Assembly (NCBI GenBank): GCA_041737125.1
Contig: JBGSSJ010000014.1
Location: forward strand, 68,375 to 132,374
From: Minisyncoccia bacterium
Lineage (GTDB): Bacteria > Patescibacteriota > Minisyncoccia > Phycocordibacterales > UBA9973
DNA length: 64,000 nucleotides
Direction of reading: 5' to 3'
The position numbers were made by a program, and so were the translations under genes. Shown in pieces: positions 28,425-42,162 of the stretch (the first letter of the stretch is position 1; each line of letters starts with the position of its first letter). The notes below the pieces were generated by a model. The model did no database searches. It had not been told where the DNA came from and saw only the letters and a program-made list of their open reading frames with translations.

Positions 28425-28859
28425 TTAAGATATTGATAAAAAAAGCTGAGGTTCTTTCCTTACCAAGTTAAGTGCTAAGTGAAAACCGCTTGTATTTTCA
28501 ATAGAGAAAGATTTACAACTATCTTTTAAATACCCATTTTTTGAAAAATTACATTCTATGTTATTTGGAGTGATTACTCTATTTAAAAAAACATCAAAAT
28601 AAATACCAAGAGAAAAACTATATAGCTGAACAATTGTACGTACAAAATCTGAAGCATAATCCAAATAATAGCCTAAATTTTCTTCTTTATATAGATCGAT
28701 TTCACAGCGAACTGTTACAATAGAATTTTCTATGCTTATCAAATAACTAATTGTTTGATTAATTGGTTGAATTGTATAAATTATTTTTGGTATTTCTTTT
28801 ACAATTAAAATTTTTTCATCATTAGGGAATATTCGTCCTGTAAATTTGAATGTTTGCAT
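28425..28859 (-). CDS. hypothetical protein (last gene of the LexA-headed operon)
   Basis: ORF only; co-directional with the upstream defense-like genes. Confidence 0.3.
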   Translation of the reverse strand: MQTFKFTGRIFPNDEKILIVKEIPKIIYTIQPINQTISYLISIENSIVTVRCEIDLYKEENLGYYLDYASDFVRTIVQLYSFSLGIYFDVFLNRVITPNNIECNFSKNGYLKDSCKSFSIENTSGFHLALNLVRKEPQLFLSIS

Positions 28860-29015
28860 GTTTATTGTGAATTAAGATAACATCCTCCAGATTCCTTTTC
28901 TTATTGCTAATTTTATATACAAAGCTGGCGTCTTTGAGCCAGAACGGTGCTCGGTCAAGCCCTGCAAGGACATTTTCAATACTTTTAGACCATGATTTCG
29001 ACGATCTTTGAGCAC

Positions 29016-29207
29016 CTATAAAGTTACCTCGTTTCCATGTCCGTCTAACACCACTCCTTTTGGAAGCTTATACAGATCAGGGTTCTGCTTCTTATCCATT
29101 TTGATCAGCAGATCAAACAGACCAACGACTCTATCTCGTTCTTCCTCAGTCCAGTTATTAGGATTTTTCTTATCTTCTTGATTCATAAAAAGTGACAAAA
29201 GTGACAC
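29016..29207 (-). CDS. hypothetical small protein
   Basis: ORF only. Confidence 0.2.
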   Translation of the reverse strand: MSLLSLFMNQEDKKNPNNWTEEERDRVVGLFDLLIKMDKKQNPDLYKLPKGVVLDGHGNEVTL

Positions 29208-29243
29208 GGATTAGGCTTATAAAATTACAGTCATGTGTCACTT

Positions 29244-29969
29244 TCAACCTAGTGGATGATTCTTCATATCCTCCTCCGCTTTCTTTGGGTTTGTAGCAAA
29301 AAACACTTGCCCAATATACCCAGGTTCATCAATCAGCATAATGCCACCATCCAGATCGTATTTAGTGCAGACTTCTTTCAAGCTCATTAGTGTAATGACA
29401 CAAGTGTCTGCTCTGACTATTCTCTTCAAGTTCTCAACAAAAGGTCTCTTCTCTTTAAAATCAATCTTTGATGGTCTGTACGTTGGGTGAATAAACTCTG
29501 ACAACCTTTGATATGACGTTAGGTATTGGGACTCAGAATTTACGGCTGTAAACTTCTCACGAATCTTAGTCTCCTTGTAGCCTTTCAGTTGCTCCTTAAA
29601 AAATTCATACATTTCCTTTGCCTCAGGTGTGTATTCATCTAGTGCTTCGAACTTTTTCGCCATGCCTTTGACTTGTGTCAGCTTAAAGTTTGTCGCTCTC
29701 TTTTCAGTGTCCTCCTTGTAGATGTATTGGAGATTGATTGAGTTTTCTAAGATTGATCTAGATAGCTTTATACACCCCTCAAAATCATTTCTCATGATCA
29801 ACGTGTCCATTGATTCAAATATCCCAATGAACTCTTCTATAGAAAATTTGGTCACATCAAAAACGTCCTCGGGTATGGATTTCCGCTTTTCCTGAATCTG
29901 CTCCAGATGATCCTGAAGAATCGACTTCATGGCTCCGAACACTGTCTTTTTCTTGAAGAGGTTAAACAT
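29244..29969 (-). CDS. hypothetical protein (operon member, unknown function)
   Basis: ORF only; tightly packed with neighbours. Confidence 0.4.
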   Translation of the reverse strand: MFNLFKKKTVFGAMKSILQDHLEQIQEKRKSIPEDVFDVTKFSIEEFIGIFESMDTLIMRNDFEGCIKLSRSILENSINLQYIYKEDTEKRATNFKLTQVKGMAKKFEALDEYTPEAKEMYEFFKEQLKGYKETKIREKFTAVNSESQYLTSYQRLSEFIHPTYRPSKIDFKEKRPFVENLKRIVRADTCVITLMSLKEVCTKYDLDGGIMLIDEPGYIGQVFFATNPKKAEEDMKNHPLG

Positions 29970-29983
29970 TGTTTTACTATTAA

Positions 29984-30199
29984 TTACTTTCCGTTAGTCT
30001 TTTCAAATTTCTCTAGCTCCTGTTTGATCACATTCCTACAAAGGACTTCGAGGTAATTCAATCTTTTCAATATCTGTTCTTCGGTACTTGTTTCGTCAGA
30101 CATTATTTTCCTATACTCCTCTATAGAGATCGACATGTTAAATGAGTACGATAAGTTGAAGTATGAATCCACTAAGAAGTAGTACGCCTCCAATAACAC
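29984..30199 (-). CDS. hypothetical small protein (likely start at internal Met near 30136)
   Basis: ORF overlaps the upstream gene unless the internal Met is used. Confidence 0.2.
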   Translation of the reverse strand: MLLEAYYFLVDSYFNLSYSFNMSISIEEYRKIMSDETSTEEQILKRLNYLEVLCRNVIKQELEKFEKTNGK

Positions 30200-30929
30200 C
30201 CCATTTTCTTTGAGTCAGACGATCTTGAACTTGCGGTAGTTTTAGATTCTCTTCATCAGTACCACCCCAACGAGAAACACCCAATCGTAGTGCTTCTTTT
30301 TGAGAAATAAACAAACCTTTTGCAAAAGCGATACTTCCTAGAAAGCTCAATGTGAGTCCAGCGATATTTAAGTACCCATCAATACCAGTCAATTGAACTG
30401 TAGGTATATCAAAGAAACCAGACAAAGCTGACCACGGGATAACCGACAGGATCAATGCGAGATAAATAACGATGAATATTTTTGGAACATATAATTCGAT
30501 GTGACTGAACGGCCAGTAAACTTTCTTATCTTCTCCACGACCCAACATTTCCCATTCCGTATCGTACAGAGCAAGTGGTAGTCGCATTTCAATCGCGTGG
30601 ACTACTTTGAATTTCGCACTGTTCAGCCCCTTGTATGATGCGATGATTCTGTACCACAAGTAACAGATGGTTATACCTGCAATCGAAGATACACCAAGCA
30701 TAAGACTTATTTCGGACTGACTTGTCTTTGTTGCAATAAATCCCAAAAGAGCAACAAGTGCGGTATTCAAACCAAGAAAGAACTCGTTAGTCTTTTGTCT
30801 GCGATCACTTATCTTCTCAGTAGCGTTGATATAAATCTTGTACTGATCCAAAAGGTGCTCAATATACTTATCACCGTATTTTTCCGATGCAGAGATAAAT
30901 AATATTTTTTCAATATCTTCTTTTTGCAT
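30138..30929 (-). CDS. multi-TM membrane protein with short N-terminal cytoplasmic helix; SLATT/DUF4231-like putative pore-forming effector
   Basis: N-terminal KYIEHLLDQYKIYINATEKISDRRQKTNEFFLGLNTAL pattern followed by about 5 TM helices; 4-bp gap to the TIR-like gene. Confidence 0.45.
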   Translation of the reverse strand: MQKEDIEKILFISASEKYGDKYIEHLLDQYKIYINATEKISDRRQKTNEFFLGLNTALVALLGFIATKTSQSEISLMLGVSSIAGITICYLWYRIIASYKGLNSAKFKVVHAIEMRLPLALYDTEWEMLGRGEDKKVYWPFSHIELYVPKIFIVIYLALILSVIPWSALSGFFDIPTVQLTGIDGYLNIAGLTLSFLGSIAFAKGLFISQKEALRLGVSRWGGTDEENLKLPQVQDRLTQRKWGVIGGVLLLSGFILQLIVLI

Positions 30930-30932
30930 AAA

Positions 30933-31340
30933 TTATGACAGCTCACGGATACCAGCCACGATAGAACTTGTGTTCCATTTGACTATTTTGTCCGCATTTT
31001 TCTTTACGACCAATGATGTTTTTTCACTCGCCCAAGGTTCGATAGCAAGAATCGGTTTCGGATTTGTGAACCCTTTTGCAAGTGCAATCTCTTTATTAAT
31101 CCAATCGCTGTAACTTGAGTATACTCCCGCAAGAATTATGATCACATCACAAAAACGCATCTGATCTTGTATAGCTCGTGATAAAGCAATAGAGCTTGGA
31201 GCGTTGTGAATGGGATCATTCTTCGGTACAGAATAGTCCTTAAAATTAAATCGTGGGTCTGCGTTGAGCATTTTAATGAGCTTATCGTATGCATCACCGT
31301 ACGCCCAAGAGTGACTTATGAATATGTTGTAGTGTCTCAT
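30933..31340 (-). CDS. TIR-like domain protein (DUF1863/ThsB-type)
   Basis: N-terminal YNIFISHSWAYGD and conserved W..KEIALAKG glutamate region; 135 aa. Confidence 0.6.
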   Translation of the reverse strand: MRHYNIFISHSWAYGDAYDKLIKMLNADPRFNFKDYSVPKNDPIHNAPSSIALSRAIQDQMRFCDVIIILAGVYSSYSDWINKEIALAKGFTNPKPILAIEPWASEKTSLVVKKNADKIVKWNTSSIVAGIRELS

Positions 31341-31343
31341 ATA

Positions 31344-32285
31344 TTATATCTTTCCCTCCTTAACTAACCTCCAATAATGGTAACCGAGCGCCGTTAACTT
31401 ACATGTCTTTGAATTTTGAGCAACATAATACATATGCTCCTCTCCCACAGGCATCACCAAACCTATGCTCACCAACTTCTGCAGATTTTTTAGTATCGCG
31501 ACTTTTTCAGGAACAGCGATATCCTTATTATCAAATTCATAGGTTGGATCGAGTTGATACTCTTGCTCTGGTACCGAAAAATACTCCGTCATCTTTCTTA
31601 AGACTTCTACTGGTACCTGCGGACTAATGGTTCGCAAAGAAGTGAATCTTGTGACATTTGTTTTAAAAACTGGTCGCTGATCCCATGGACCAAGAGCTTG
31701 ATCAATATAGGCGTAGACACTGCCTGGTGTTATGTGACCACGCAAATCCGCCGCACCCCCTTGTAGTGCGTCAATAAGTAAATTAGTGAAGATGCCATGA
31801 CCATTAACCTCAATAGCACTTTCCGCAGACCTGCTCGCAGTCAGAATTACTACACCTTCGATTATTTGAGCAGAACCATTTCCAATTATCGCAGGAGATC
31901 CAAATGCTCCAGAATGACAACAATCCAAAATTATCACCTTATCTTTCGCTTTGGATTTATTTGCCAAAGTAAGTATTTCGTCCATTGAAACACCCTCATC
32001 ATTCTGCTGGTAATCTGGTGTCACTATATAACCACCAAGATCATTGAAGAATCCGTGACCTGAAAAGTAAAACAAGGCAATGTCACTATCACCCTCAAAC
32101 AATTCTCTGACCATGGTTTTTAGCTGTGACTTTGTTGTAACATCAGTCTCCAATTTCACGGCAAAATTAGGAGCGCCGTCACCATTCTTCTCAATTGTGG
32201 TAGCAAAGGCTGTGGCATCATTAACACACCCCTTAAGAGGTGCTGTTGGATAGTTATTTATACCGATAACAAGTGCCTTTCTCAT
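31344..32285 (-). CDS. caspase-family (peptidase C14, metacaspase-like) cysteine protease
   Basis: ALVIGINNY...GCVNDA, FYFSGHG (His) and ILDCCHSG (Cys) catalytic dyad motifs. Confidence 0.75.
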   Translation of the reverse strand: MRKALVIGINNYPTAPLKGCVNDATAFATTIEKNGDGAPNFAVKLETDVTTKSQLKTMVRELFEGDSDIALFYFSGHGFFNDLGGYIVTPDYQQNDEGVSMDEILTLANKSKAKDKVIILDCCHSGAFGSPAIIGNGSAQIIEGVVILTASRSAESAIEVNGHGIFTNLLIDALQGGAADLRGHITPGSVYAYIDQALGPWDQRPVFKTNVTRFTSLRTISPQVPVEVLRKMTEYFSVPEQEYQLDPTYEFDNKDIAVPEKVAILKNLQKLVSIGLVMPVGEEHMYYVAQNSKTCKLTALGYHYWRLVKEGKI

Positions 32286-32289
32286 GTTG

Positions 32290-32661
32290 TTAAAGTTTGC
32301 TCAAGAATGATTTTATGTTTGTCCAACTCCAAACATTAATAAGTCGTGTGTTCAGAGGATATGAAAGTGTAGGACGATCACTGGTTGAGTACATCAACAT
32401 TGTCGGGATCTTTTCTTCCTCTGCGGTTTTAATTTCAAATAGCTGACCTGTTGCTGATGGCGTATTTTTACTTATGAGTGCAATAACGCCGTCACAGCCT
32501 TTGATTTTTGTTCGACACTTCGATTCCCAGTCTGTCTCCCATGGTGTCTTTACAGACATATCAACAAACTCAAATGGTGAGTTGTCGTTTTTTGCTTGCC
32601 CTACAAGAAAATCTCGAGATGTCTTGTCTTCAATAGCGAATGCGATAAATATTCTTTTCAT
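32290..32661 (-). CDS. TIR-like domain protein (DUF1863/ThsB-type), second copy
   Basis: MKRIFIAFAIEDK N-terminus and GVIALISKNTPSATGQLFEIKTAEEE conserved Glu region. Start moved to the internal Met, which leaves a 4-bp gap to the LexA stop. Confidence 0.6.
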   Translation of the reverse strand: MKRIFIAFAIEDKTSRDFLVGQAKNDNSPFEFVDMSVKTPWETDWESKCRTKIKGCDGVIALISKNTPSATGQLFEIKTAEEEKIPTMLMYSTSDRPTLSYPLNTRLINVWSWTNIKSFLSKL

Positions 32662-32665
32662 AATT

Positions 32666-33283
32666 TTAATAGAGATCTCCGGGAAGTACCGCAACTACTA
32701 CTCCTTGGATCATGCAGTTATCTGTTAATACGATCGGCTTGTAGGTTTTGTTGCTCGACTTTGGTCTGAGAACAACTACGCCGTCTGCCTTTTCAAAAAC
32801 CTTCACAGTAGCCTCGTCATTGATGAGTGCAACTACTTTGTCTCCGTCCTGTGCAGTATCTTGCTGACGAATCAGTAAGAGATCGCCACTGTCGATACCT
32901 GCCTCATTCATTGAGTCGCCAACCGCACGCAGAATAAAATACTTTGAACCTTTCTTTGCCAGACCTGTAGAGACTGGGATATAGGTTTGTATATTCTCTT
33001 CTGCAAGCGCTGGAGTACCGCAGGTAACAGCTCCGATCAGAGGAACATTCACAGTGCTTACTGAAGCTACCGACTGTGTACCAATGATCACGAGCTGTCT
33101 CCCGATCTTCTTTACCAATCCTGCTTCGATCAAACGATCAATCACAAGACTAGCGGAGCGTGGAGATTTTCCTCCCGTTACCTCGTTTATTTCACGAAGC
33201 GATGGGCTTTCACCATAATGGATAATCTTGTTGCGGATAAGGGCAAAAGCTTTTTTGTCTTTGTCACTAAGGTTATTTGTCAT
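32666..33283 (-). CDS. lexA: LexA-like repressor (winged HTH plus S24 peptidase); likely start at Met of MTNNLSDKDKKAFALIRNKI
   Basis: LexA-like N-terminal domain, cleavage-site region VTCGTPALAEEN, Ser motif VGDSMNEAGI and Lys in ATVKVF. Confidence 0.75.
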   Translation of the reverse strand: MTNNLSDKDKKAFALIRNKIIHYGESPSLREINEVTGGKSPRSASLVIDRLIEAGLVKKIGRQLVIIGTQSVASVSTVNVPLIGAVTCGTPALAEENIQTYIPVSTGLAKKGSKYFILRAVGDSMNEAGIDSGDLLLIRQQDTAQDGDKVVALINDEATVKVFEKADGVVVLRPKSSNKTYKPIVLTDNCMIQGVVVAVLPGDLY

Positions 33284-33373
33284 GGTATAAACAGTATAAA
33301 ATATCGTATACAAAAAAGCAAGACTCCCTACTGAGGGGGAGAACACTGTCAAGGATTCTTTTGACTCTTCCAC

Positions 33374-33607
33374 TTTTAAAGCGTCAGAATCTTCACGACT
33401 GCAAATAACTCAAAGAACGTTTATATCCTTTATTACAAGGATATTTTTATGCTGACGCATTCAGCGTGCGTACACGCAGGAGCTTGCACATTACTTTCCC
33501 CAAAAATCCAAACGCACTTTCTTAGTATCGTGACTATGTAACACAGTGCTGTCATTTTCTAGAGATGACACCCCTGATTACATCATTATCACTAATTCAC
33601 ACACATT
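33374..33607. promoter_or_regulatory. divergent control region between the LexA-like gene and the ParB-MTase/terminase genes, with several palindromes (candidate operators)
   Basis: TATCCTT-attac-AAGGATA, ACACAGTGCTGTCA, GCTGACGCATTCAGCGTGCG and GAACGTTT-like elements in a 234-bp non-coding gap between divergent genes. Confidence 0.4.
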
Positions 33608-34888
33608 ATGAAAAAAGAAACATTGGAATGGATTTCAGGAATTGAGGACGTTAAAAAGTTAAAGCCTTGGAAAGACAATCCCAGGGACATAACGAATGCA
33701 GGGTTTGAAAGATTGAAAGACAGAATCAGACTGCGTGGTTTTCACAGTTCGATAGTTGTTGATATTGATAACACCATCCTCTCAGGAAACATGAGATGGC
33801 GGGCACTTAATGCACTCGGTATTAAAAGGGTCAATATTCTCAGACCGAATAGAAAACTAACGAACGAGGAGCGAAAAAAGATTGCACTCGAAAGTAATTT
33901 GAACGACGGCGAGTGGAACATGGAAGCCTTGAAGTCATTTAACTTGGAGCTACTGACTGATGTCGGGTTCGATCAGATGAAGCTCGTGGAGTTCTGGGAC
34001 AAGGATGCGAAGGTTGCGAATGAACCTTTTGATCTTGAGAAAGAAATCAAGATTGCTCAGAAGACTGATATTAAACACGGGAACATGTATCAGCTCGGTC
34101 GCCACAGATTAATTTGCAGTGACGCTACGGATCCAAATACCGTCATCAGGTTGATGAACGGAGCAAAGGTAGACCTCATCAATCAAGATCCACCTTTTAA
34201 TATAGGGCTGTCATACGACAAAGGAGTTGGTGGAAAGAAGAGCAACAAGAACTACGGCGGTGGAACGAACGACAACATGAGCGATGAGGGATACAAGGAC
34301 TTCATCAGGAAGATGATCACGAATGCGTTGTCCGTCAGTAAGAAGGACTGTCATGTTGCCTATTGGGCAGATGAGAGGTTCGTCTGGATTTTTCAAACCT
34401 TATACAAAGAATTGGGTGTCGCTTCCAAGAGACTTCTCATATGGGTTAAGAACAATGCGAGTCCGACACCTAGAACTGCTTTTAACAAAGCAACGGAATA
34501 CATTATCTATGGCACAGTTGGCTCTCCGTACCTTTCTCCAAATGTCCACAATGCCAATGAAATAATAAATCCCGATACGACAACGGGAAATGATCTGCTC
34601 GACGAGTTGAGTAACATCATTCTCCAAAAGAGATTGCCGAGCAACCAATATAATCACCCCACACAAAAGGATCCTCAGGTGCACACCAAGATACTCAAAC
34701 GCTGTACCAAGATCGGTGATGTGGTGCTTGATCTAACCGCTGGTTCTGGAAGTATCATGTCCGCCTGTGAGCAGTTAGGCAGAGTCGCCTACATGTGTGA
34801 CTACGAGCCTATTTTCTGCCAAGTAATCCTGAATAGATACAAGAAGATGACTGGACTTAATCCTGTACAGATATATGAAGAAAAATAA
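33608..34888 (+). CDS. ParB-like nuclease domain fused to a beta-class DNA (N6-adenine or N4-cytosine) methyltransferase
   Basis: N-terminal ParB/Srx-like region; motif IV DPPF (LINQDPPFNIG) precedes motif I VVLDLTAGSGS, the order typical of beta-class amino-MTases. Confidence 0.7.
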   Translation: MKKETLEWISGIEDVKKLKPWKDNPRDITNAGFERLKDRIRLRGFHSSIVVDIDNTILSGNMRWRALNALGIKRVNILRPNRKLTNEERKKIALESNLNDGEWNMEALKSFNLELLTDVGFDQMKLVEFWDKDAKVANEPFDLEKEIKIAQKTDIKHGNMYQLGRHRLICSDATDPNTVIRLMNGAKVDLINQDPPFNIGLSYDKGVGGKKSNKNYGGGTNDNMSDEGYKDFIRKMITNALSVSKKDCHVAYWADERFVWIFQTLYKELGVASKRLLIWVKNNASPTPRTAFNKATEYIIYGTVGSPYLSPNVHNANEIINPDTTTGNDLLDELSNIILQKRLPSNQYNHPTQKDPQVHTKILKRCTKIGDVVLDLTAGSGSIMSACEQLGRVAYMCDYEPIFCQVILNRYKKMTGLNPVQIYEEK

Positions 34889-35264
34889 GATACAGGATAA
34901 ATTTTTTGAAGAACTCAAAACTATCCCGATCGTTCAGGTCGCTTGTGAAAAATCAGGGGTTTCCAGAAACAGCGTGTATCGTTGGAAGAAAGAAGATAAG
35001 TCGTTCTCAAAGAAAATGGATCAGGCGCTTGCTGACGGCGTGGCATTCGTGAGTGATATGAGTGAAAGCCAGCTCCTCACGCTAATCAAAGAAAAGAGTT
35101 TCCCTGCACTTAGCTTTTGGCTACGGCACAGGAATGACAACTACAAAACCAAGGTCGAAGTATCGGGATCAATATCAACAAAAGAAGATCCGCTCACCAA
35201 AGAACAGAAGAATCTCGTACGGCAAGCACTGAAATTATCTTCTCTCAAACACCATGAGAAATGA
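34875..35264 (+). CDS. phage terminase small subunit-like HTH protein
   Basis: HTH CEKSGVSRNSVYRWKKED, and position immediately upstream of the terminase large subunit with an overlapping start. Confidence 0.5.
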   Translation: MKKNKIQDKFFEELKTIPIVQVACEKSGVSRNSVYRWKKEDKSFSKKMDQALADGVAFVSDMSESQLLTLIKEKSFPALSFWLRHRNDNYKTKVEVSGSISTKEDPLTKEQKNLVRQALKLSSLKHHEK

Positions 35265-36696
35265 AAGTAAGCAGATCTTCGAGCGAGTCCTGAAAGATCA
35301 GCGGTTTCGGCAAGAAGTCGTTAGAAAAAGTTTGGAGTTTTTCTTTCCTATATATCTGCACGAATACATCAAGTACGAAACACCACCCTTTCACAATGAG
35401 ATATTTCGTATTCTTCAAAATGAGAAAAACAAGCTTGCTGTCATCGCTGCATTTCGAGGTTCAGCAAAATCAACTATCGTAACAACCGCATATGTTCTGT
35501 GGTCTATCTTAGGAGTACAACAAAAAAAGTTCATCATCGTATGTTCACAGACTGAAGCAAAAGCAAGACAACATCTGAACAATATTAAATATCAACTTCT
35601 CAATAATGAACTCTTAAAGAAAGACCTTGGACCATTCGAAGAAGAGAAGAATAATCTTGGGAATGCCACTGCTCTGATTATTAAACGAATGAATGTGAAG
35701 ATTATGATCTGCTCCATTGAGCAGAGTATTCGTGGTATGCGACATAATGAGCATCGTCCTGATCTTATTATTCTCGATGACATTGAAGATATGAACTCAG
35801 TCAAAACAAAGGAGGGTCGAAACAAAACATTTGACTGGCTCACTGGCGATATTATCCCTGCAGGTACCCGAAAGACTCGGATCATCGCTATCGGCAACCT
35901 GCTCCACGAAGACTGTGTATTGAAACGACTGGAGAAGAAGATTGAAAAAGGTGAAGTGAAATTAATGAATGGTATCTATCGCGAGTATCCAATTATAGAC
36001 AACAAAGGCAACGCACTTTGGGCTGGTAAATACCCAACCACTGAATCTATTGAGGAAGAGCGAGAAAAGGCTCTGAACGATATTGCGTGGCATCGAGAGT
36101 ACCTACTCAAGATCATTTCAAGCGATGAGCAGATCGTAAAACCAGAATGGATAAAGTTGTATGACAAATTTCAAACTGATGGATTCAGGGGTATCTATAT
36201 TGGCGTAGACTTGGCTATCGGCGAGAAAGAAACGAATGATTGCACAGCTATGGTTATCGGGTATGTCTTTGGTATCGGAAAGAAGATGAAAATATACATC
36301 CGTCCAAAACCATTTAATGCCAGAGTTCCATTTCCTGAGCAAGCTGAGTATTTAGCAAATTTGATTGCAAGGGAAAAAATCACACACAATAGAGTCAAAG
36401 TATACGTCGAGGACGTTGGGTATCAGCGAGCACTTGTGCAGTACTTCGATAGCAACAAGTACGATATCGAAGCTGTGCCAGTTGGCAGAATGAGTAAGTC
36501 ATTGCGACTGCAATTGACCACACCACTCCTCAAAGAAAGTAGAGTTCTCTTTCCAGAGGAAGGGTGCGAAGAACTTATTGAGCAGTTACTTGGATTTGGA
36601 AAAGAAAAGCATGACGATCTGGTCGATGCGTTTTCTTTGCTAGTGATGAAAGTGATCGATAATAACCCGAGTAACGCAGGAATAATATTTGGATAG
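35254..36696 (+). CDS. phage terminase large subunit
   Basis: ATPase Walker A-like AFRGSAKST, Walker B-like LIILDDIED, and C-terminal nuclease motif EKHDDLVDAFSLLV. Confidence 0.7.
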   Translation: MRNESKQIFERVLKDQRFRQEVVRKSLEFFFPIYLHEYIKYETPPFHNEIFRILQNEKNKLAVIAAFRGSAKSTIVTTAYVLWSILGVQQKKFIIVCSQTEAKARQHLNNIKYQLLNNELLKKDLGPFEEEKNNLGNATALIIKRMNVKIMICSIEQSIRGMRHNEHRPDLIILDDIEDMNSVKTKEGRNKTFDWLTGDIIPAGTRKTRIIAIGNLLHEDCVLKRLEKKIEKGEVKLMNGIYREYPIIDNKGNALWAGKYPTTESIEEEREKALNDIAWHREYLLKIISSDEQIVKPEWIKLYDKFQTDGFRGIYIGVDLAIGEKETNDCTAMVIGYVFGIGKKMKIYIRPKPFNARVPFPEQAEYLANLIAREKITHNRVKVYVEDVGYQRALVQYFDSNKYDIEAVPVGRMSKSLRLQLTTPLLKESRVLFPEEGCEELIEQLLGFGKEKHDDLVDAFSLLVMKVIDNNPSNAGIIFG

Positions 36697-36700
36697 ATTT

Positions 36701-37618
36701 TTATTCGTTTATCTTAAAAGAGACAATCGCAAGCAGTAGCTCAAAGTCATTCATTGAAATAATAAATGGAGCTTCTTTTCCTTTCTTGAATAGATACAAA
36801 AATCCATCTCTAATATCCAAAGAAGATATTTTATCGTAAGGAATACTAAGATGTTTATTAAGACCAATGTACCCAAGATTATCTGTGGTTAGATATAGAG
36901 TACCTGCATCATCAGTCATCATCACATTCACTTTTTGTGGATTAATTTTGATGTTACCAACTCGATACCTTAATCCCTTGGCGATCTTTATAGATGCAGA
37001 AAAGCCACTATAGTTGTAACTCTTCGTTATTGATTTGTTTTTAACAATAAATGCCTTATTTACACAGTGCAGTTTTTCACCTGCCTTTAAATTGACATTC
37101 AGATTTGGAACATCAATGGTCGGTAGCTTTCCCTCGTCTATTAAATAAAGCGTATGGTATTTATTAAAATCACTTTGATTATACGCAAGATTATCTGTAG
37201 AGAGATTCAGATCAGAATAAATTTTAACAAGCTCTTTTCTCTCGGCTTCTGTAATTCTTGAGTCGTCCGTAATTTTATCAAAGAAAGTTTTGAATCCTAT
37301 GAGATTATATTTTTCGACATCCTTGTCAGACAAATTATGATCTTTTTTAATTCCCTCTAAAACTACCTTGTCGTCTTCTGACAGGTTTCCATCAATCAGT
37401 AATTCTTTGATTTTTTCTGAATATAAACTTAACGCTTTTCTTTTAGGTGATCTAAATACTTTTGTAAATAGAAAATAAACTGCACCTATGGCGATACCTA
37501 TGTAGAGGAGATCTTTAAATAAACTGAAATTGACGATGATTATCGTGAGCACTATAAGAGTAAGTATTATCTGCTTGGCAAGAGATAAATCCTTAAACTT
37601 TTGTAAAAGATTTTTCAT
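36701..37618 (-). CDS. membrane-anchored hypothetical protein
   Basis: Two N-terminal TM helices and an unknown C-terminal domain. Confidence 0.4.
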   Translation of the reverse strand: MKNLLQKFKDLSLAKQIILTLIVLTIIIVNFSLFKDLLYIGIAIGAVYFLFTKVFRSPKRKALSLYSEKIKELLIDGNLSEDDKVVLEGIKKDHNLSDKDVEKYNLIGFKTFFDKITDDSRITEAERKELVKIYSDLNLSTDNLAYNQSDFNKYHTLYLIDEGKLPTIDVPNLNVNLKAGEKLHCVNKAFIVKNKSITKSYNYSGFSASIKIAKGLRYRVGNIKINPQKVNVMMTDDAGTLYLTTDNLGYIGLNKHLSIPYDKISSLDIRDGFLYLFKKGKEAPFIISMNDFELLLAIVSFKINE

Positions 37619-37977
37619 TAACTTTGGACGGTTTTTCTAATAATGAACTGGGCAGGTAGCAAAAAACTCCTAGCCAGATCCGACATACCCCGTGAGGTAT
37701 GCCCACATCAGTTTCCCGATGTGACCGTCCAAAGTAGACCCCTGACTAGGAGATCTTTGCTTTGGACGGATTTGCAACCATATCCTTTGGCGAACCAAAG
37801 GGGTTAGGTCGACTGATATTCAGTTGTAAATGAATAATAACATTTTCAGAGTTATTACTCTAGATTGATTGTATCGCTGATACGTGGTTTTGCTAAGGAT
37901 AGTATCGCGAGTATGCGACGTATTTCTTAGTCTGCATAGTCTTAGCAAAATAGATGATCTGCGTCATTAATTAATAT
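37619..37977. promoter_or_regulatory. palindrome-rich non-coding region upstream of the second serine recombinase (candidate attachment site and promoter)
   Basis: CTTTGGACGG at 37621 and 37758 with its inverse CCGTCCAAAG at 37725; CTCCTAG / CTAGGAG inverted pair; TTGCTAAG..CTTAGCAA inverted pair. Confidence 0.35.
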
Positions 37978-39300
37978 ATGGAAACGCAGTACATAAGTAA
38001 CCTTGGTGTTAAGACGGAGGTAATTCAAGCGAAAGTAAGATATGTCTTATACGCCAGAAAATCAACTGAATCTGATGAGAAGCAAGCCCTTTCGATTGAG
38101 TCTCAAGTAAAGGAGATGTTAACTATCGCAGATCGAGACGGTTTAACAGTCGTCGATATTAGGCGTGAATCTCATTCTGCAAAAGAGTCAGGGCAACGAC
38201 CAGTATTTAAAGAATTACTTGAGGATATTCGGCGAGGTAGATATACAGGAATTCTGACCTGGGCACCTGATCGTCTTTCTCGAAATGCCGGTGATCTTGG
38301 TTCAGTTGTTGACCTTATGGACGAAAACAAGCTTATAGAGATTAGGACATATGGACAACACTTTAAGAATTCACCAAACGAGAAGTTTCTTTTAATGATT
38401 TTATGCTCACAAGCAAAACTCGAGAACGATAATAAAAGTATCAATGTAAAACGAGGATTACGGACAAGATGTGAAATGGGGCTTCGCCCAGGTCCTGCAA
38501 TATTTGGATATTTAAACGAAAAGCATGTAGATAAAAAATGTGAAGTTATTATCGACACAGAGCGAGCACCTGTAGTTAAAAAGATATTTGAAAAAGTAGC
38601 ATATGAAAAATGGAGTGGGAGAAAAATATATCACTGGTTAAAGTTTGAGTTAAATCTAAAAACTCGTAACGGAAACAAAGGACTTACCCTCAGCAACATC
38701 TATATGATTTTAGAAAACCCCTTTTACTACGGGGTTTTTGAATATCCCAAGAAAAGTGGAAATTTTTATAAAGGTAGACACGAACCAATCATCACAAAAG
38801 AACTGTTTGATACTGTGCAAGAACAAGTTAAATCACAAACTCTTCGTACTCAAGAGCCAAAAGAATTCGCTTTTATTAAAATGATGAATTGTGGTCTTTG
38901 TGGATCAGGAATTACCGCAGAAGAAAAATTTAAGAAACTTAAAGACGGCAGCATAAACAGACATGTGTATTATGGCTGTGCCAAATCTAAGGATAGATTT
39001 TGTAAGTGTGGGTATATTAATGAGAATGATTTGATTCAACAATTTGAAAAACTAATTGATCAAATTGATATCAATGAAATTGGAATGAAAGAAAAAATTA
39101 AATACGAAGTTGAGCGAATTAAAAGATTTAACCATTCTGTATTAAATATAAAACAACAAATACAGATAAAAGATGTGGATGTAAGGGACTACGCCAAGTT
39201 TATTTTGAAAGATAGCTCGATTGAAGACAAGCGAGAATTACTCATGTGCTTTAAAAACAACATTTTGTTAGATAATAAAACTATTAGGTTGAGTTATTAA
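37978..39300 (+). CDS. large serine recombinase (paralog of 1948..3591)
   Basis: YVLYARKSTESDEKQALSIESQ...WAPDRLSRN catalytic domain and a Cys cluster CGLCGS...CAKSKDRFCKCG. Confidence 0.85.
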   Translation: METQYISNLGVKTEVIQAKVRYVLYARKSTESDEKQALSIESQVKEMLTIADRDGLTVVDIRRESHSAKESGQRPVFKELLEDIRRGRYTGILTWAPDRLSRNAGDLGSVVDLMDENKLIEIRTYGQHFKNSPNEKFLLMILCSQAKLENDNKSINVKRGLRTRCEMGLRPGPAIFGYLNEKHVDKKCEVIIDTERAPVVKKIFEKVAYEKWSGRKIYHWLKFELNLKTRNGNKGLTLSNIYMILENPFYYGVFEYPKKSGNFYKGRHEPIITKELFDTVQEQVKSQTLRTQEPKEFAFIKMMNCGLCGSGITAEEKFKKLKDGSINRHVYYGCAKSKDRFCKCGYINENDLIQQFEKLIDQIDINEIGMKEKIKYEVERIKRFNHSVLNIKQQIQIKDVDVRDYAKFILKDSSIEDKRELLMCFKNNILLDNKTIRLSY

Positions 39301-39379: not shown

Positions 39380-40957
39380 ATGACCACACTAACCAAAAAA
39401 CAAAAAGAAGTATTTGATTATATAAGCACATATATCGCTGAAAATGGTATTTCTCCAACCATTGATCAGATTCGTAAAAAATTAAAGCTGAAGGCAGTCT
39501 CTACTGTTCATGAACATATCGCTTCCCTAAGAGAAAAAGGATACCTTTCAAAGTCAGATAGTACAGATCGAGGGATGACACCAAAAAAAGAAATCAAATC
39601 GGTAATTGAGATTCCTATAGTTGGTAAAATTGCTGCTGGTCAACCAATTGAGGCATTAGAAGATCATCAGGCTACTATTTCAATAATAAATCCCTCTATT
39701 AAGAGTGCTAAGGATCATTATGCTTTACGAGTAGTTGGTGACAGTATGATCGATGAAGGTATTTTTAATGGAGATATTGTGGTTATTAAAAAACAATCCG
39801 TAGCAGAGAATGGACAAACTGTTGTCGCGATTATTGACGATAACCAAGCAACCCTCAAAAAATTATATAAGGAGGATAAAAAAATAAGGCTACAGCCTGG
39901 AAATCCTGACATGAAGCCTTTGTTTAGAGTAGATGTTGAGATCAGAGGTGTTGTTGTTCAAGTTATAAGAAATATCGATAATGAAGCAGAAGTGTTACCT
40001 ACAAAGAAACAGAAGCATGGTTTTAGAACAATAGACTTATTTGCTGGAGTAGGAGGCATCCGAAAAGGATTTGAAAATGCAGGTTTTAAAACAGTCTTTG
40101 CAAATGATTTTGATGCCCCTTGTAAGCAGACATATGATTTGAATTTTAAAGATTCTAAATTAATAATTGAAGACATTAGAAAAATTGGTATCAATGATTT
40201 ACCAGAGTTTGACTTTATACTCGGAGGTTTTCCTTGTCAGGCATTTTCTATAGCAGGCTATCGCAAAGGCTTTGATGATCCTAAAAATAGAGGTAACCTG
40301 TTTTTTGATATTGCGAAGATTATTGAAGCAAGAAAACCAGCAGGCTTCATGTTGGAAAATGTTAAAAATCTAAAAAGCCATGATGATGGAAATACTTTTA
40401 GAATTATCGAAGAGACCCTCAGAGATCTTGGTTACCATGTAAAATCCAAAGTACTAAACACTATGGAATATGGAAATGTTCCCCAAAATCGTGAGAGAAT
40501 TTATATTGTAGGATTTAGAAATAAAGATTACTTTGATAGGTTTAACTTTCCAGAACCAGTAAAACTCACAAAAAAAATAACAGATCTCTTAGAGAAAAAT
40601 GTTCCTGAAAAATACTATTACAATGGCAAACCTCTTTTTGATAAATTAAAGAAAGACGTAAAAGAAGAAGGTAAGGTATACCAATGGCGAAGGCAATATG
40701 TTCGCGAAAATAAAAGTGGGGTTTGCCCTACTCTCACAGCAAATATGGGAATGGGTGGACACAATGTACCAATTATCAAAGATAAGAAAGGTATCAGAAA
40801 ACTTACGCCATTAGAGTGCTTTAGAATACAAGGATTTCCTGCAACTTATATTTTACCCAAGATCGCAGACTCTTCTTTGTATAAACAAGCTGGCAATTCA
40901 GTTAGTGTCCCTGTTATTGAAGCCGTTGCTAAAAAAATGATGGAGGCAATGAAGTAG
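39380..40957 (+). CDS. fusion of a full-length LexA repressor (wHTH plus S24 autopeptidase) to a cytosine-5 DNA methyltransferase
   Basis: LexA part: LTKKQKEVFDYI, cleavage site KIAAGQP, VGDSM Ser, TLKKL Lys. MTase part: motif I DLFAGVGG, motif IV GFPCQAFS (PCQ), ENV, C-terminal QAGNSVSVPV. Confidence 0.85.
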   Translation: MTTLTKKQKEVFDYISTYIAENGISPTIDQIRKKLKLKAVSTVHEHIASLREKGYLSKSDSTDRGMTPKKEIKSVIEIPIVGKIAAGQPIEALEDHQATISIINPSIKSAKDHYALRVVGDSMIDEGIFNGDIVVIKKQSVAENGQTVVAIIDDNQATLKKLYKEDKKIRLQPGNPDMKPLFRVDVEIRGVVVQVIRNIDNEAEVLPTKKQKHGFRTIDLFAGVGGIRKGFENAGFKTVFANDFDAPCKQTYDLNFKDSKLIIEDIRKIGINDLPEFDFILGGFPCQAFSIAGYRKGFDDPKNRGNLFFDIAKIIEARKPAGFMLENVKNLKSHDDGNTFRIIEETLRDLGYHVKSKVLNTMEYGNVPQNRERIYIVGFRNKDYFDRFNFPEPVKLTKKITDLLEKNVPEKYYYNGKPLFDKLKKDVKEEGKVYQWRRQYVRENKSGVCPTLTANMGMGGHNVPIIKDKKGIRKLTPLECFRIQGFPATYILPKIADSSLYKQAGNSVSVPVIEAVAKKMMEAMK

Positions 40958-40959
40958 GG

Positions 40960-41523
40960 TTACCAAACCTTTACATCAGTCGCGATTGGCTTAAGGTCAT
41001 ATTTTGCAATCACATCTTTTTTGATACAAAATCTAGGTCGTCTCTTTTCTTCTTGTTGCTGTTTTAGCGTTTGAAGTTTATTGACCGGGTTATCATAGAT
41101 AAAATTATTAGGTATTTTATATACCTTAAAAGTTCCGTCGACTCTGCCGTCAGCATAAAAATCTAAAAAATATAAATCGTCCCACTTAGATTTTGGACCA
41201 AAAGAAGTAAGATCATTTTCTACACTACAAGCTTTGATTTGTTCTGCTCTCTTTGTTTTAGTATTAAACGTATCAAATGATGTATTAGAAAGTTTTTTAG
41301 CACTTATTAATCTTGTGGATCCAGACCATAAACAAAAAGCAACCTCAGATAATCCTTCAGGAAAATTTGGTTCACGCGATTTATAATCACGCATTCCCAT
41401 CTTTAATCCTTTCCATAGATCAAATAGTGTTTTCCATTTTTTTCCATCAGAAGAATCAAACTCCATTAGATCAACGGTGCAGTCTTCATCAAAAATAGTA
41501 GTGTTTACTTTAACTAAGTTCAT
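40960..41523 (-). CDS. putative type II restriction endonuclease partner of the C5-MTase (small, possibly Bsp6I-like)
   Basis: Convergent with only a 3-bp gap to the C5-MTase gene; 187 aa with acidic/Lys clusters compatible with a PD-(D/E)xK enzyme. The call rests on context only. Confidence 0.35.
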   Translation of the reverse strand: MNLVKVNTTIFDEDCTVDLMEFDSSDGKKWKTLFDLWKGLKMGMRDYKSREPNFPEGLSEVAFCLWSGSTRLISAKKLSNTSFDTFNTKTKRAEQIKACSVENDLTSFGPKSKWDDLYFLDFYADGRVDGTFKVYKIPNNFIYDNPVNKLQTLKQQQEEKRRPRFCIKKDVIAKYDLKPIATDVKVW

Positions 41524-41628
41524 GATGTATTTATACTATATTTTTATCAATTTCTCAAACAAAAACACCTTTTTAATTAAAGGTGTTTTTGTTTTAAAAC
41601 TAGCTATCTTTGAGCTAGCTCTTGTTTG

Positions 41629-41728
41629 CTGCCAGACCTGGACTCGAACCAAGGAAGTGTCCTACCCGCCCGCCATTGCAAGCATGAGCTTGCTCAGGCG
41701 TTGCGGGCGGGCCATTAGACGATCACTG
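41629..41728 (-). pseudogene. degenerate tRNA-Gln paralog: T-arm and acceptor 3' strand intact, anticodon arm deleted, 47-nt GC-rich palindrome inserted in the D-loop, 5' acceptor mutated
   Basis: Aligns base-for-base with tRNA-Gln at 41743..41813 except for the missing anticodon arm and the inserted CCCGCCCGCC...GCGGGCGGG hairpin (41665..41711). Confidence 0.45.
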
Positions 41729-41742
41729 ATTTCTGCACAAAG

Positions 41743-41813
41743 CTGCCAGACCTGGACTCGAACCAAGATAACCTCCTCCAGAGGGAGGTGTCCTACCATT
41801 AGACGATCTGGCA
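41743..41813 (-). tRNA. tRNA-Gln (anticodon CTG)
   Basis: Acceptor TGCCAGA/TCTGGCA, D-arm GTCT-AATGGTA-GGAC, anticodon arm CCTCC-CTCTGGA-GGAGG, T-arm CTTGG-TTCGAGT-CCAGG. Confidence 0.8.
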
Positions 41814-42073: not shown

Positions 42074-42136
42074 GTCCTACCCGCCCGCCATCGCAAGTAT
42101 GAGCTTGCTCAGGCGTTGCGGGCGGGCTATTAGACG
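42074..42136. repeat. second copy of the GC-rich ~47-nt palindromic element with tRNA D-arm-like flanks (gtcctac...attagacga)
   Basis: 42079..42125 matches 41665..41711 with 3 substitutions; the flanks gtcctac and c(t/c)attagacga are conserved. Confidence 0.55.
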
Positions 42137-42162
42137 AGCCGGCAATGCGATCGGCAAATACT

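What the first reader, a model, noticed from the sequence alone, without database searches (positions are those of the whole stretch)
28425..33373. LexA-headed operon with two TIR-like proteins, a caspase-like protease and a SLATT-like membrane protein: candidate undescribed Thoeris-like abortive-infection module
Nine co-directional minus-strand genes run with 0-4 bp gaps or overlaps from the LexA-like S24 repressor down to the 144-aa unknown at 28425..28859. The repressor stop is 4 bp from the first TIR-like gene's likely start. The two ~135-aa TIR-like proteins (FISHSW and FIAFAIEDK N-termini, each keeping the conserved W..E region where the catalytic Glu lies in ThsB-type TIRs) flank a caspase/metacaspase-like peptidase with an intact His (FYFSGHG) / Cys (DCCHSG) dyad. 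Next comes a ~5-TM protein whose N-terminal helix resembles SLATT/DUF4231 effectors. Four more unknown genes follow (71-aa, 241-aa, 63-aa and 144-aa ORFs). Known Thoeris pairs ThsB-type TIR with SIR2/SLOG or Macro-TM ThsA; a paired-TIR plus caspase plus membrane-effector layout under an SOS-type autocleaving repressor is not a described architecture to my knowledge. Placement directly downstream of a CI/LexA-like repressor mirrors lambda cI-rexAB, suggesting a lysogeny-expressed or DNA-damage-tuned exclusion system.
Basis: partly seen in the sequence, partly recalled or inferred. Interest (0 to 1): 0.85.

Follow-up and report, generated by a model that had tools for sequence, protein, structure and literature searches.

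The report
LexA-led double Thoeris defence operon
This is a phage-defence gene cluster that joins a published TIR-plus-caspase system (type IV Thoeris) to a predicted but untested TIR-plus-membrane-protein system, both behind a LexA-type repressor on a small mobile element, so the parts are known and only the combination and its regulation are new.

Summary

The architecture is not undescribed. TIR-A is 40% identical to the validated Pseudomonas sp. 1-7 type IV Thoeris TIR. TIR-B is 56% identical to the validated E. coli 328 TIR. The TIR-A of a sister locus (L008) is listed verbatim as "Caspase - Type IV" in Yirmiya et al. 2025.

The membrane protein is not SLATT. It belongs to Pfam 8xMP (PF24838). 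By exact sequence matches, this is the "3TM" putative Thoeris effector of the same preprint, predicted but untested.

What remains new:
- Both effectors sit in one operon, as also in L100.
- The operon is headed by an autoregulated LexA-like repressor with a conserved GTATAC-N6-GTATAC operator.
- It sits in the cargo slot of a compact integrase-TerL-TerS-ParB/methylase element of Patescibacteria.

Neighbourhood swaps and strong purifying selection on "orphan" TIRs suggest that the two TIRs and two effectors share one signal. That is inferred, not shown. The distal genes (DUF5677, the 144-aa ORF) are variable cargo. I rate this a new variant of a known kind, of moderate interest.

The parts
33293..33321 (-). 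Promoter of the operon: -35 TTGCTT (33321-33316), 17-nt spacer, -10 TATACT (33298-33293). The ATG lies 9 nt after the -10, so the mRNA is probably near-leaderless.
   Evidence: Read from the sequence. Both hexamers and the spacing are conserved in six orthologous loci. The simple sigma-70 scan did not list it; function not tested.
33294..33311 (-). Candidate operator GTATAC-N6-TTATAC, a palindromic half-site pair overlapping the spacer and the -10.
   Evidence: Conserved at the same place in L006, L009, L010 and L094. It is the only site in the 64-kb window. Binding is inferred.
32666..33283 (-). LexA-type autocleaving repressor (205 aa from the ATG at 33283; the ORF is open back to a GTG at 33373).
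   Evidence: PF00717 8.6e-29 and PF01726. TIGR00498 142.5 bits, above the cutoff.
32290..32661 (-). TIR-A (ThsB, 123 aa); putative catalytic Glu76 at 32434-32436.
   Evidence: 40% identical (E 3e-32) to the validated Pseudomonas sp. 1-7 type IV TIR. The family profile hits PDB TIR/ThsB entries. Glu76 is invariant in the 29-sequence alignment and at least 97% conserved in 94 homologues.
31344..32285 (-). Caspase-like protease (ThsE-type, 313 aa): His77 (32055-32057), Cys123 (31917-31919), and a conserved C-terminal domain of about 110 aa.
   Evidence: PF00656 2.8e-21. PADLOC caspase model 2e-23. phrog_18397 2e-89. The dyad and the C-terminal domain are conserved in 83 homologues. Next to TIRs in 72 of 80 loci.
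30933..31340 (-). TIR-B (ThsB, 135 aa); putative catalytic Glu84 at 31089-31091.
   Evidence: PF08937 1e-15. 56% identical to the E. coli 328 type IV TIR. 68% identical to a '3TM'-associated TIR, and 79-94% identical to TIRs directly upstream of 8xMP elsewhere.
30138..30929 (-). 8xMP-family membrane protein (263 aa, long form: a 3-TM core plus a 2-TM C-terminal extension). It is the putative second Thoeris effector, the '3TM' class.
   Evidence: PF24838 4e-42. 5 hydrophobic segments. 71 of 80 homologous loci have a TIR directly adjacent. Exact-match link to the '3TM' entries of Table S1.
29984..30136 (-). 50-aa ORF, 1 nt after 8xMP; function unknown. It recurs after 8xMP.
   Evidence: Homologues follow 8xMP in L091, L092 and in L095, L096, L097, L135.
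29244..29969 (-). DUF5677 protein (241 aa). It is variable cargo and not shown to belong to the system.
   Evidence: PF18928 7e-14. It follows 8xMP in L098, L099 and L118 only. It is absent between the 50-aa and 63-aa ORF homologues in L091/L092.
29016..29207 (-). 63-aa ORF, probably an element backbone gene that marks the end of the cargo slot.
   Evidence: Homologues follow the caspase directly in L007 and follow 8xMP in L091-L093 and in L095, L097, L103, L127.
28425..28859 (-). 144-aa ORF with no family match. It is 156 nt downstream, behind a terminator-like hairpin (28925-28942). Probably not part of the operon.
   Evidence: No Pfam, PHROG, PADLOC or NCBIfam hit. No homologue in any fetched locus. 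Hairpin.
33608..39300 (+). Element backbone, divergent from the repressor: ParB-N/N6-N4 methylase (33608-34888), TerS (34875-35264), TerL (35254-36696), a 305-aa minus-strand ORF, LOOT RNA (37682-37810, minus strand) and serine integrase (37978-39300).
   Evidence: Pfam and PHROG hits. The same module lies next to LexA-TIR cassettes in at least 20 loci and occurs in 5 IMG/VR contigs. LOOT RNA.

Best explanation
The locus is a composite Thoeris-type abortive-infection operon. It sits in the cargo slot directly downstream of the LexA/CI-type repressor of a compact integrative element (serine integrase, TerL, TerS, ParB-methylase). The host genome is probably a Patescibacteria one.

Shown by homology:
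- TIR-A plus the caspase form a type IV Thoeris pair (ThsB + ThsE).
- TIR-B plus the 8xMP membrane protein form the '3TM' Thoeris type, which has been predicted but never tested.

Inferred mechanism:
1. On phage infection the TIRs turn NAD+ into an ADP-ribose-derived signal. For type IV this is N7-cADPR.
2. The signal binds the conserved C-terminal domain of the caspase and unleashes indiscriminate proteolysis.
3. The signal also drives the 8xMP protein to breach the membrane. Either way the infected cell is stopped before phage is released.

Two observations point to a shared signal. Near-identical TIR-A proteins sit with the caspase alone or with TIR-B+8xMP alone. 'Orphan' TIRs stay under strong purifying selection. 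The most likely wiring is therefore two sensors feeding one shared signal that is read by two effectors.

The whole set is transcribed from the repressor's own promoter. Its -10 is overlapped by a conserved GTATAC-N6-GTATAC palindrome. Expression should therefore be kept low by autorepression and rise when RecA-stimulated self-cleavage removes the repressor. This regulatory step is inferred.
For: Component identity:
- TIR-A is 40% identical to the validated Ps. sp. 1-7 TIR and TIR-B is 56% identical to the validated E. coli 328 TIR.
- The Table S1 'Caspase - Type IV' TIR 2623352462 is an exact match to the TIR-A of L008. That locus has the same backbone and a caspase 83% identical to the window's.
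- The catalytic Glu, His and Cys are conserved.
- Five '3TM' TIR sequences are exact substrings of TIRs directly upstream of 8xMP.
- 71 of 80 8xMP loci and 72 of 80 caspase loci have an adjacent TIR.

The composite recurs: LexA-TIRA-CASP-TIRB-8xMP in L100; CASP-TIRB-8xMP in L091 and L151.

Shared signal:
- Both TIR classes pair with both effectors.
- TIR-A in caspase-less loci has dN/dS 0.02-0.13 at dS 0.8-1.6.
- By inspection of the sequences printed, it is about 93% identical to the TIR-A of caspase-only L006.
- L004 keeps TIR-B next to the caspase without 8xMP.

Regulation:
- Gaps of 1-4 nt leave no room for separate promoters.
- The promoter and operator are conserved in 5 of 6 orthologous loci, and the operator is unique in the window.
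- The LexA cleavage-site and dyad residues are intact.
- A same-strand LexA lies upstream of the cassette in 11 of 80 caspase loci and 19 of 80 8xMP loci.

Precedents:
- A one-operon Pycsar + type IV Thoeris hybrid shows synergy (PMC13069673).
- DNA-damage regulators CapK/CapS sit upstream of 12 type IV Thoeris systems (PMC13373217).
Against: - Nothing here is experimental for this locus. No signal molecule, defence phenotype or repressor binding has been measured.
- 8xMP has never been shown to be an effector. Its model is of low confidence (pLDDT 65) and has no structural neighbour.
- Over the whole family, TIR-A subfamilies mostly sort by effector: 88 of 93 caspase-linked and 53 of 66 8xMP-linked TIR-As have a nearest neighbour with the same effector. 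The gene order TIR-effector-TIR-effector also fits two independent pairs.
- TIRs of the TIR-B cluster make canonical cADPR in types VII and VIII, so the signal cannot be read off from homology.
- In the Pycsar/Thoeris hybrid the effectors were not cross-activated.
- The operator motif at one mismatch is no more frequent in the window than chance (2 matches against 1.4 expected). Its support is conservation of position, not statistics.
- LexA may simply be the element's own repressor, and co-transcription may be incidental.
Confidence: 0.75

Rival explanations
1. Two independent Thoeris systems merely sit side by side. TIR-A signals only to the caspase (N7-cADPR). TIR-B makes a different molecule that only 8xMP reads. 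Any benefit is additive or synergistic without cross-talk.
For: - The gene order is TIR-effector-TIR-effector.
- The closest relatives of TIR-B (88-94% identical) nearly all sit next to 8xMP, and the closest TIR-As sit next to the caspase.
- Yirmiya et al. file them as separate types.
- TIR-B-cluster TIRs make different signals in types VII and VIII.
- The effectors of the Pycsar + type IV hybrid operon are not cross-activated.
Against: - TIR-A orthologues 81-85% identical to the window's persist under dN/dS 0.02-0.13 in at least 7 loci that lack the caspase.
- TIR-B persists next to the caspase without 8xMP in L004.
- TIRA-8xMP is the commonest 8xMP layout, in 49 of 80 loci.
- TIR-B-class TIR + caspase is a validated system in E. 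coli 328.
Confidence: 0.35
2. The LexA-type protein is only the lysogeny or maintenance repressor of the mobile element. The Thoeris genes are passenger 'morons' with no functional dependence on DNA damage. They are expressed constitutively at low level from the repressor's promoter, as rexAB is from lambda PRM.
For: - Most LexA-headed cassettes carry the divergent ParB/methylase-TerS-TerL-integrase module.
- The slot after LexA holds at least five different gene sets.
- Caspase loci of other phyla have no detectable LexA homologue adjacent.
Against: - S24-TIRA-CASP-TIRB also occurs among housekeeping genes without the backbone, in L004.
- LexA-TIRA-8xMP occurs without detectable backbone in L105, L114 and L155.
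- The only copy of the operator in the window is at this promoter.
- This rival is compatible with the main explanation in everything except the meaning of induction.
Confidence: 0.4
3. The cluster is not an immune system. It is the element's own host-killing or release module: a TIR NADase, a protease and a holin-like membrane protein, switched on when the repressor is cleaved.
For: - The cluster is under a LexA-type repressor on a terminase-bearing element that has no recognisable lysis genes.
- 8xMP is a small multi-TM protein.
Against: - Homologous TIR+caspase pairs were shown to defend against phage and to need infection for signalling.
- The same pairs lie in defence islands with no element, in L002 and L087-L090.
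Confidence: 0.05

Closest known systems
Type IV Thoeris (ThsB TIR + ThsE caspase-like protease; Rousset et al. 2025, bioRxiv 10.1101/2024.10.24.620036)
   Same: A short TIR with a catalytic Glu lies directly upstream of a caspase-like protease that has a His/Cys dyad and a conserved C-terminal domain. Both window TIRs are homologues of the two validated TIRs. A sister locus is listed as type IV in Yirmiya et al. Table S1.
   Different: Here there are two TIRs of different classes, a second (membrane) effector in the same operon, and a LexA-type repressor as first gene. The locus lies on a mobile element in a Patescibacteria-like genome. No experiment exists for this lineage.
'3TM' putative Thoeris type (Yirmiya et al. 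2025, bioRxiv 10.64898/2025.12.03.692087, Fig. 1C and Table S1; predicted, not tested)
   Same: A TIR-B-class TIR lies directly upstream of a small 3-TM protein. Five Table S1 TIRs are sequence-identical to TIRs next to 8xMP genes fetched here.
   Different: The window protein is the rarer long form, with an extra 2-TM C-terminal extension of about 95 aa. Here it is identified as Pfam PF24838 (8xMP). In my sample it pairs more often with TIR-A-class TIRs (49 of 80 loci); the '3TM' rows I read in Table S1 carry TIR-B-like sequences.
Type VII Thoeris (TIR + SLATT membrane effector ThsH, canonical cADPR)
   Same: A TIR of the same broad cluster (2734565194) is paired with a multi-TM effector that is thought to oligomerise and breach the membrane.
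   Different: 8xMP gives no SLATT or DUF4231 match in any of 27 members, and it is a separate Pfam family. The signal is unknown.
Liu-DS6 hybrid operon (Clade F Pycsar PycTM+PycC with type IV Thoeris; NAR 2026, PMC13069673)
   Same: One operon joins a nucleotide-signalling system with a TM effector to a type IV Thoeris, and synergy was shown. The Salmonella houtenae locus L002 found here has that layout.
   Different: The second module here is TIR-based, not cyclase-based. The two modules could therefore share a signal, whereas DS6 effectors are not cross-activated.
Lambda cI-rexAB, and DNA-damage regulators of immune operons (CapH/CapP, CapK/CapS; PMC13373217)
   Same: Defence genes are co-transcribed behind an element's autocleavable repressor, from a near-leaderless promoter. 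DNA-damage-responsive control of type IV Thoeris has precedent, with 12 CapK/CapS cases.
   Different: The regulator is a bona fide LexA-family S24 protein, not CapH/CapP, CapW or CapK/CapS. The cargo is Thoeris, not RexAB.

Membership tests
Type IV Thoeris | TIR-domain protein (ThsB) with a catalytic glutamate | tested here: met
   TIR-A is 40% identical and TIR-B 56% identical to the validated TIRs. TIR-B hits PF08937 at 1e-15. The TIR-A profile hits PDB TIR/ThsB entries. Glu76 is invariant in 29 aligned sequences and at least 97% conserved in 94; Glu84 is conserved in the 9 aligned TIR-B sequences.
Type IV Thoeris | [quoted passage not shown] | tested here: met
   PF00656 2.8e-21. His77, Cys123 and the C-terminal 110 aa are conserved in 83 homologues. 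There was no direct comparison with the PsCaspase sequence, which was not available. The link is through L008, whose TIR is listed as type IV.
Type IV Thoeris | TIR and caspase genes adjacent in one operon, a conserved pairing | tested here: met
   4-nt gap. 72 of 80 caspase loci have an adjacent TIR.
Type IV Thoeris | The TIR makes N7-cADPR on infection, and this activates the protease | not testable with these tools
   Needs lysate and LC-MS assays.
Type IV Thoeris | Protects against phage by abortive infection | not testable with these tools
   Needs plaque and growth assays.
'3TM' predicted Thoeris type (Yirmiya et al.) | TIR of cluster 2734565194/2556961318 directly next to a small 3-TM protein | tested here: met
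   Exact matches of five Table S1 TIRs to TIRs upstream of 8xMP. The window TIR-B is 68% identical to '3TM' entry 2676542066 and, by eye, close to 90% to the entry for scaffold ga0208694 (not computed). The 8xMP core has 3 TM segments.
SLATT / DUF4231 effectors (type VII Thoeris ThsH, CBASS) | Sequence match to a SLATT or DUF4231 profile | tested here: not met
   Only PF24838 is significant. None of 27 family members hits a SLATT family at E<=10. The fold comparison was inconclusive because of the low-confidence model.
LexA family (TIGR00498) | N-terminal winged-helix DNA-binding domain plus an S24 domain with a cleavage site and a Ser/Lys dyad | tested here: met
   142.5 bits against a cutoff of 111. 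Cys-Gly at the cleavage position; Ser and Lys align to S119 and K156.
LexA family (TIGR00498) | RecA-stimulated self-cleavage and control of an SOS regulon | not testable with these tools
   Only one candidate operator was found, at its own promoter. No regulon is evident in this window.
Functional temperate prophage | Capsid, portal, tail and lysis genes | tested here: not met
   Only ParB/methylase, TerS, TerL and integrase lie between 33.6 and 39.3 kb. The same compact set is found in at least 20 loci and in IMG/VR contigs, none with recognisable structural genes (the large ORFs of the IMG/VR contigs were not scanned against family libraries).

The most novel reading that the evidence does not exclude
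One TIR-made nucleotide, likely N7-cADPR or a close isomer, is read by two unrelated effectors in the same operon: a caspase-like protease and an octameric 3-TM membrane protein. Two different TIR sensors widen the range of phages detected. The whole network is gated at the transcriptional level by an SOS-type self-cleaving LexA repressor that belongs to a capsid-less, terminase-bearing integrative element of Patescibacteria. This element family uses the slot behind its repressor as an exchangeable Thoeris cassette site.
Probability: 0.3. Interest if true: 0.6.

Novelty: new variant of a known kind. Interest (0 to 1): 0.4.

Why it matters
It gives the untested '3TM' Thoeris effector a family name (8xMP, PF24838) and a large, clean set of neighbourhoods. 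These suggest a concrete experiment: does 8xMP respond to the same signal as the type IV caspase? If so, effector swapping under a constant TIR would show how Thoeris diversifies.

It adds a LexA-type repressor to the known DNA-damage regulators of abortive-infection systems (CapH/CapP, CapW, CapK/CapS).

It shows that ultra-small Patescibacteria genomes obtain signalling immunity through a compact mobile element with an exchangeable cassette slot.

None of this overturns current understanding. The core biochemistry is already published.

Tried and rejected
- SLATT identity of the membrane protein: rejected.
- KwaA (Kiwa) identity: only a weak PADLOC hit at E=0.0097, not pursued.
- PDB sequence search with 8xMP: nothing.
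- AlphaFold2 model of 8xMP: pLDDT 65, pTM 0.47. Foldseek against the PDB gave no match below E=0.4, only generic helical bundles, so it was uninformative. No multimer prediction was possible, so the octamer implied by the Pfam name was not checked.
- Literature search for '8xMP' and 'octameric membrane protein': no relevant paper.
- Caspase against the PDB: only distant metacaspases at E of about 1e-3, so no solved ThsE relative was detectable by sequence.
- NCBIfam: the caspase is below the cutoff of 'caspase, EACC1-associated type' (108 against 140 bits), so it is not filed there.
- Nine-gene co-conservation: rejected.
- DUF5677 as a defence gene: one study tested a DUF5677 ORF, and it is not among the ORFs reported as protective (PMC12632615).
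- Sigma-70 and terminator scans: at chance level.
- Complete-prophage reading: rejected for lack of structural genes.
- Direct repeats that would bound the element: none convincing.
- LOOT RNA literature look-up: nothing useful in the main text.

Full report
**Observation.**
The nine minus-strand ORFs are present at the stated coordinates. With the most likely start codons, the gaps are 4, 4, 3, 3 and 1 nt between repressor, TIR-A, caspase, TIR-B, membrane protein and a 50-aa ORF. The gaps then widen to 14, 36 and 156 nt. A terminator-like hairpin lies before the last ORF.

- The repressor has LexA DNA-binding and S24 domains. It passes NCBI's LexA equivalog model with 142.5 bits against a cutoff of 111.
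Ser and Lys align to S119 and K156.
- An alignment of six orthologous upstream regions places the real start at the ATG at 33283.
- The protease is a C14 caspase-family protein (E=2.8e-21). His77 and Cys123 are conserved in 83 homologues, and so is its C-terminal domain of about 110 aa.
- TIR-B is a clear ThsB-type TIR (PF08937 1e-15).
- TIR-A falls just below Pfam's cutoff. However, a profile of 29 family members finds solved TIR and ThsB structures (8fz9 at 1.6e-6, then 8wcf, 8v6t, 9uv0, 6lhy, 9b7d), and Glu76 is invariant.
- The membrane protein has five hydrophobic segments. It is a strong member of Pfam PF24838, 'octameric membrane protein family (8xMP)' (E=4e-42). Neither it nor 26 relatives give any SLATT or DUF4231 hit.

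**What it is: the TIR + caspase half.**
A two-gene TIR + caspase-like operon was published as type IV Thoeris. The TIR makes N7-cADPR on infection, and this activates the protease to degrade cell proteins indiscriminately. TIR E79Q and caspase C129A abolish defence (bioRxiv 10.1101/2024.10.24.620036).

Table S1 of Yirmiya et al. (10.64898/2025.12.03.692087) prints the TIR domains of the two validated systems.
- The window's TIR-A is 40% identical (E=3e-32) to the Pseudomonas sp. 1-7 TIR. Its Glu76 aligns to the glutamate of the QKWEIQ motif, consistent with the published catalytic E79.
- TIR-B is 56% identical (E=9e-52) to the E. coli 328 TIR.

A scan of one genome per species found 168 relatives of the caspase. 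In the best 80 loci, 72 have at least one such TIR directly adjacent and about 28 have two. One Table S1 entry labelled 'Caspase - Type IV' (IMG 2623352462) is an exact match to the TIR-A of locus L008. That locus is a Patescibacteria MAG with the same gene backbone as the window, and its caspase is 83% identical. Three consecutive Table S1 entries (2617925702/705/707) are all labelled 'Caspase - Type IV' and include both TIR classes; their adjacent gene numbers suggest that they surround one caspase.

**What it is: the TIR + 8xMP half.**
Relatives of the membrane protein come in a common form of about 176 aa with 3 TM segments, and a rarer form of about 264 aa that has the window's 2-TM extension. 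In 80 metagenome loci, 71 have a TIR directly next to it:
- TIR-A-class alone in 49
- both classes in 12
- TIR-B alone in 8
- with a caspase in 2

Six of the nine loci without a TIR lack upstream sequence. The pair also lies in a defence island beside an Mrr-STAND NTPase, DpnI, a zeta toxin and an RM system, and on a Haematospirillum plasmid.

Yirmiya et al. list an untested putative effector class called '3TM'; the term occurs 100 times in the stored part of Table S1. Five of those TIR sequences are exact substrings of the TIRs that sit upstream of 8xMP in L098, L087-L090/L106, L122-L125, L134 and L173, and the scaffold names match. So '3TM' is 8xMP. It is a predicted but unvalidated Thoeris effector.

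**Context.**
Divergent from the repressor lie these genes:
- a ParB-N/N6-N4 methylase
- TerS
- TerL (phrog_38, 1.5e-81)
- one unknown minus-strand ORF
- a LOOT RNA
- a serine integrase

The same backbone flanks LexA-TIR cassettes in at least 20 loci and occurs in 5 IMG/VR contigs, with no capsid, portal or tail genes seen. The slot after the repressor holds any of the following:
- TIRA-CASP
- TIRA-CASP-TIRB
- TIRA-8xMP
- TIRA-TIRB-8xMP
- TIRB-8xMP
- the window's full set, which recurs in L100 and partly in L091 and L151

A homologue of the 63-aa ORF often closes the slot. DUF5677 follows 8xMP in three other loci, and the 144-aa ORF in none. The nine genes are therefore not one conserved system. 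The closest caspase and 8xMP relatives come from Patescibacteria/Parcubacteria MAGs.

**Regulation.**
Six orthologous loci share the layout TTGC(-35), 17 nt, TATACT(-10), 9 nt, ATG. A GTATA[CG]-N6-[GT]TATAC palindrome overlaps the spacer and the -10. The motif is found at that position in L006, L009, L010 and L094, and only once in the window.

I infer an autorepressed, near-leaderless promoter that drives the whole cluster, as lambda PRM drives cI-rexAB (own knowledge). Derepression would follow repressor self-cleavage. Binding and cleavage are not shown.

A same-strand LexA homologue precedes the cassette in 11 of 80 caspase loci, with a divergent one in two more. All of these are Patescibacteria-like. 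The figure for 8xMP loci is 19 of 80. In L004 the cassette lies among PBP, Mur-ligase and cmk genes without the backbone.

**Wiring.**
Two readings remain open.

For independent pairs:
- the gene order
- the nearest-neighbour sorting of TIR subfamilies by effector
- the different signals made by TIRs of the TIR-B cluster in types VII and VIII
- the lack of cross-activation in the published Pycsar + type IV hybrid

For a shared signal:
- Both TIR classes pair with both effectors.
- TIR-A orthologues 81-85% identical to the window's persist in at least 7 caspase-less TIRA-TIRB-8xMP loci, with dN/dS 0.02-0.13 at dS 0.8-1.6.
- The TIR-A of caspase-only L006 is, by inspection of the sequences printed, about 93% identical to that of caspase-less L097.
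- L004 keeps an intact TIR-B by the caspase without 8xMP.

I favour the shared-signal reading slightly, at about 0.5 against 0.35.

**Comparison and novelty.**
- Every protein family here is already catalogued in the Thoeris literature.
- Multi-TIR and multi-effector Thoeris islands are described.
- A one-operon TM-effector + type IV hybrid is validated.
- DNA-damage regulators upstream of type IV Thoeris are known.

Full-text searches for Thoeris together with LexA and prophage found three papers. Judged from their titles and abstracts, none describes a LexA-headed Thoeris system. The same holds for the twenty papers that mention type IV Thoeris.

What I could not find described:
- a LexA-family repressor as first gene of a Thoeris operon
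- the caspase and 8xMP effectors together in one operon
- the 8xMP identity of '3TM' and its long form
- the compact element with its cassette slot

This makes the locus a new variant of a known kind.

Noticed in passing
window 39380-41523: A single 525-aa ORF fuses a complete LexA module (DNA-binding plus S24; lexA model 186 bits) to a C5 cytosine methylase. It is convergent with a Bsp6I-like restriction enzyme gene. Similar LexA+S24+N6/N4-methylase fusions lie next to a BsaWI-like enzyme in L087-L090, and related hits lie next to TIR-8xMP in L106, L136, L139, L150 and L152. This may be a self-cleavable controller/methylase for RM systems.
   Followed up: partly
window 33608-39300; also L005, L006, L008-L010, L013, L014, L041, L086, L094, L098, L100, L101, L110, L113, L122, L124, L127, L134, L159, L161, L175-L179: A compact, recurrent element backbone of ParB-N/methylase, TerS, TerL and serine integrase, with no capsid, portal or tail genes. 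It carries variable defence cargo after a divergent LexA-type repressor. It may be a satellite-like or packaging-dependent integrative element of Patescibacteria.
   Followed up: partly
window 37682-37810 (minus strand); L086 2711-2833, L094 2246-2370, L176 6997-7111, L179 1287-1423: LOOT RNA (Rfam RF03000) scores 79 bits against a gathering score of 46.4. In the window, L086, L094 and L179 it lies close to the serine integrase gene; in L176 it lies just upstream of the ParB/methylase gene. This RNA of unknown function appears to be a component of the element family.
   Followed up: partly
window 41628-41653 and 41742-41767; 41659-41722 and 42074-42137: The 3' 26 nt of tRNA-Gln (41742-41813, minus strand) are repeated exactly 114 nt away, like an att-site remnant. 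A 64-nt GC-rich palindromic repeat (95% identical) occurs twice nearby.
   Followed up: no
L002 3235-6450 (Salmonella enterica subsp. houtenae, AGRM01000005.1): A TM protein, a nucleotide-cyclase-like protein (judged from its GDGILAFF motif; not scanned against family libraries), a TIR-B-class TIR, the caspase and a 149-aa ORF lie in a row. This is the layout published as the Pycsar + type IV Thoeris hybrid Liu-DS6.
   Followed up: partly
window 30138-30422 (C-terminal 95 aa of the 8xMP protein): The long form adds two TM helices and a conserved LKLPQVQDRL loop to the 3-TM core. Of the 120 best homologues listed, about 18 are long forms and the rest are about 176 aa. Its role is unknown.
   Followed up: no
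window 33544-33576: An inverted repeat TGTCAT-N9-ATGACA lies close to the start of the ParB/methylase gene. It may be an operator for the divergent backbone operon, distinct from the GTATAC palindrome.
   Followed up: no
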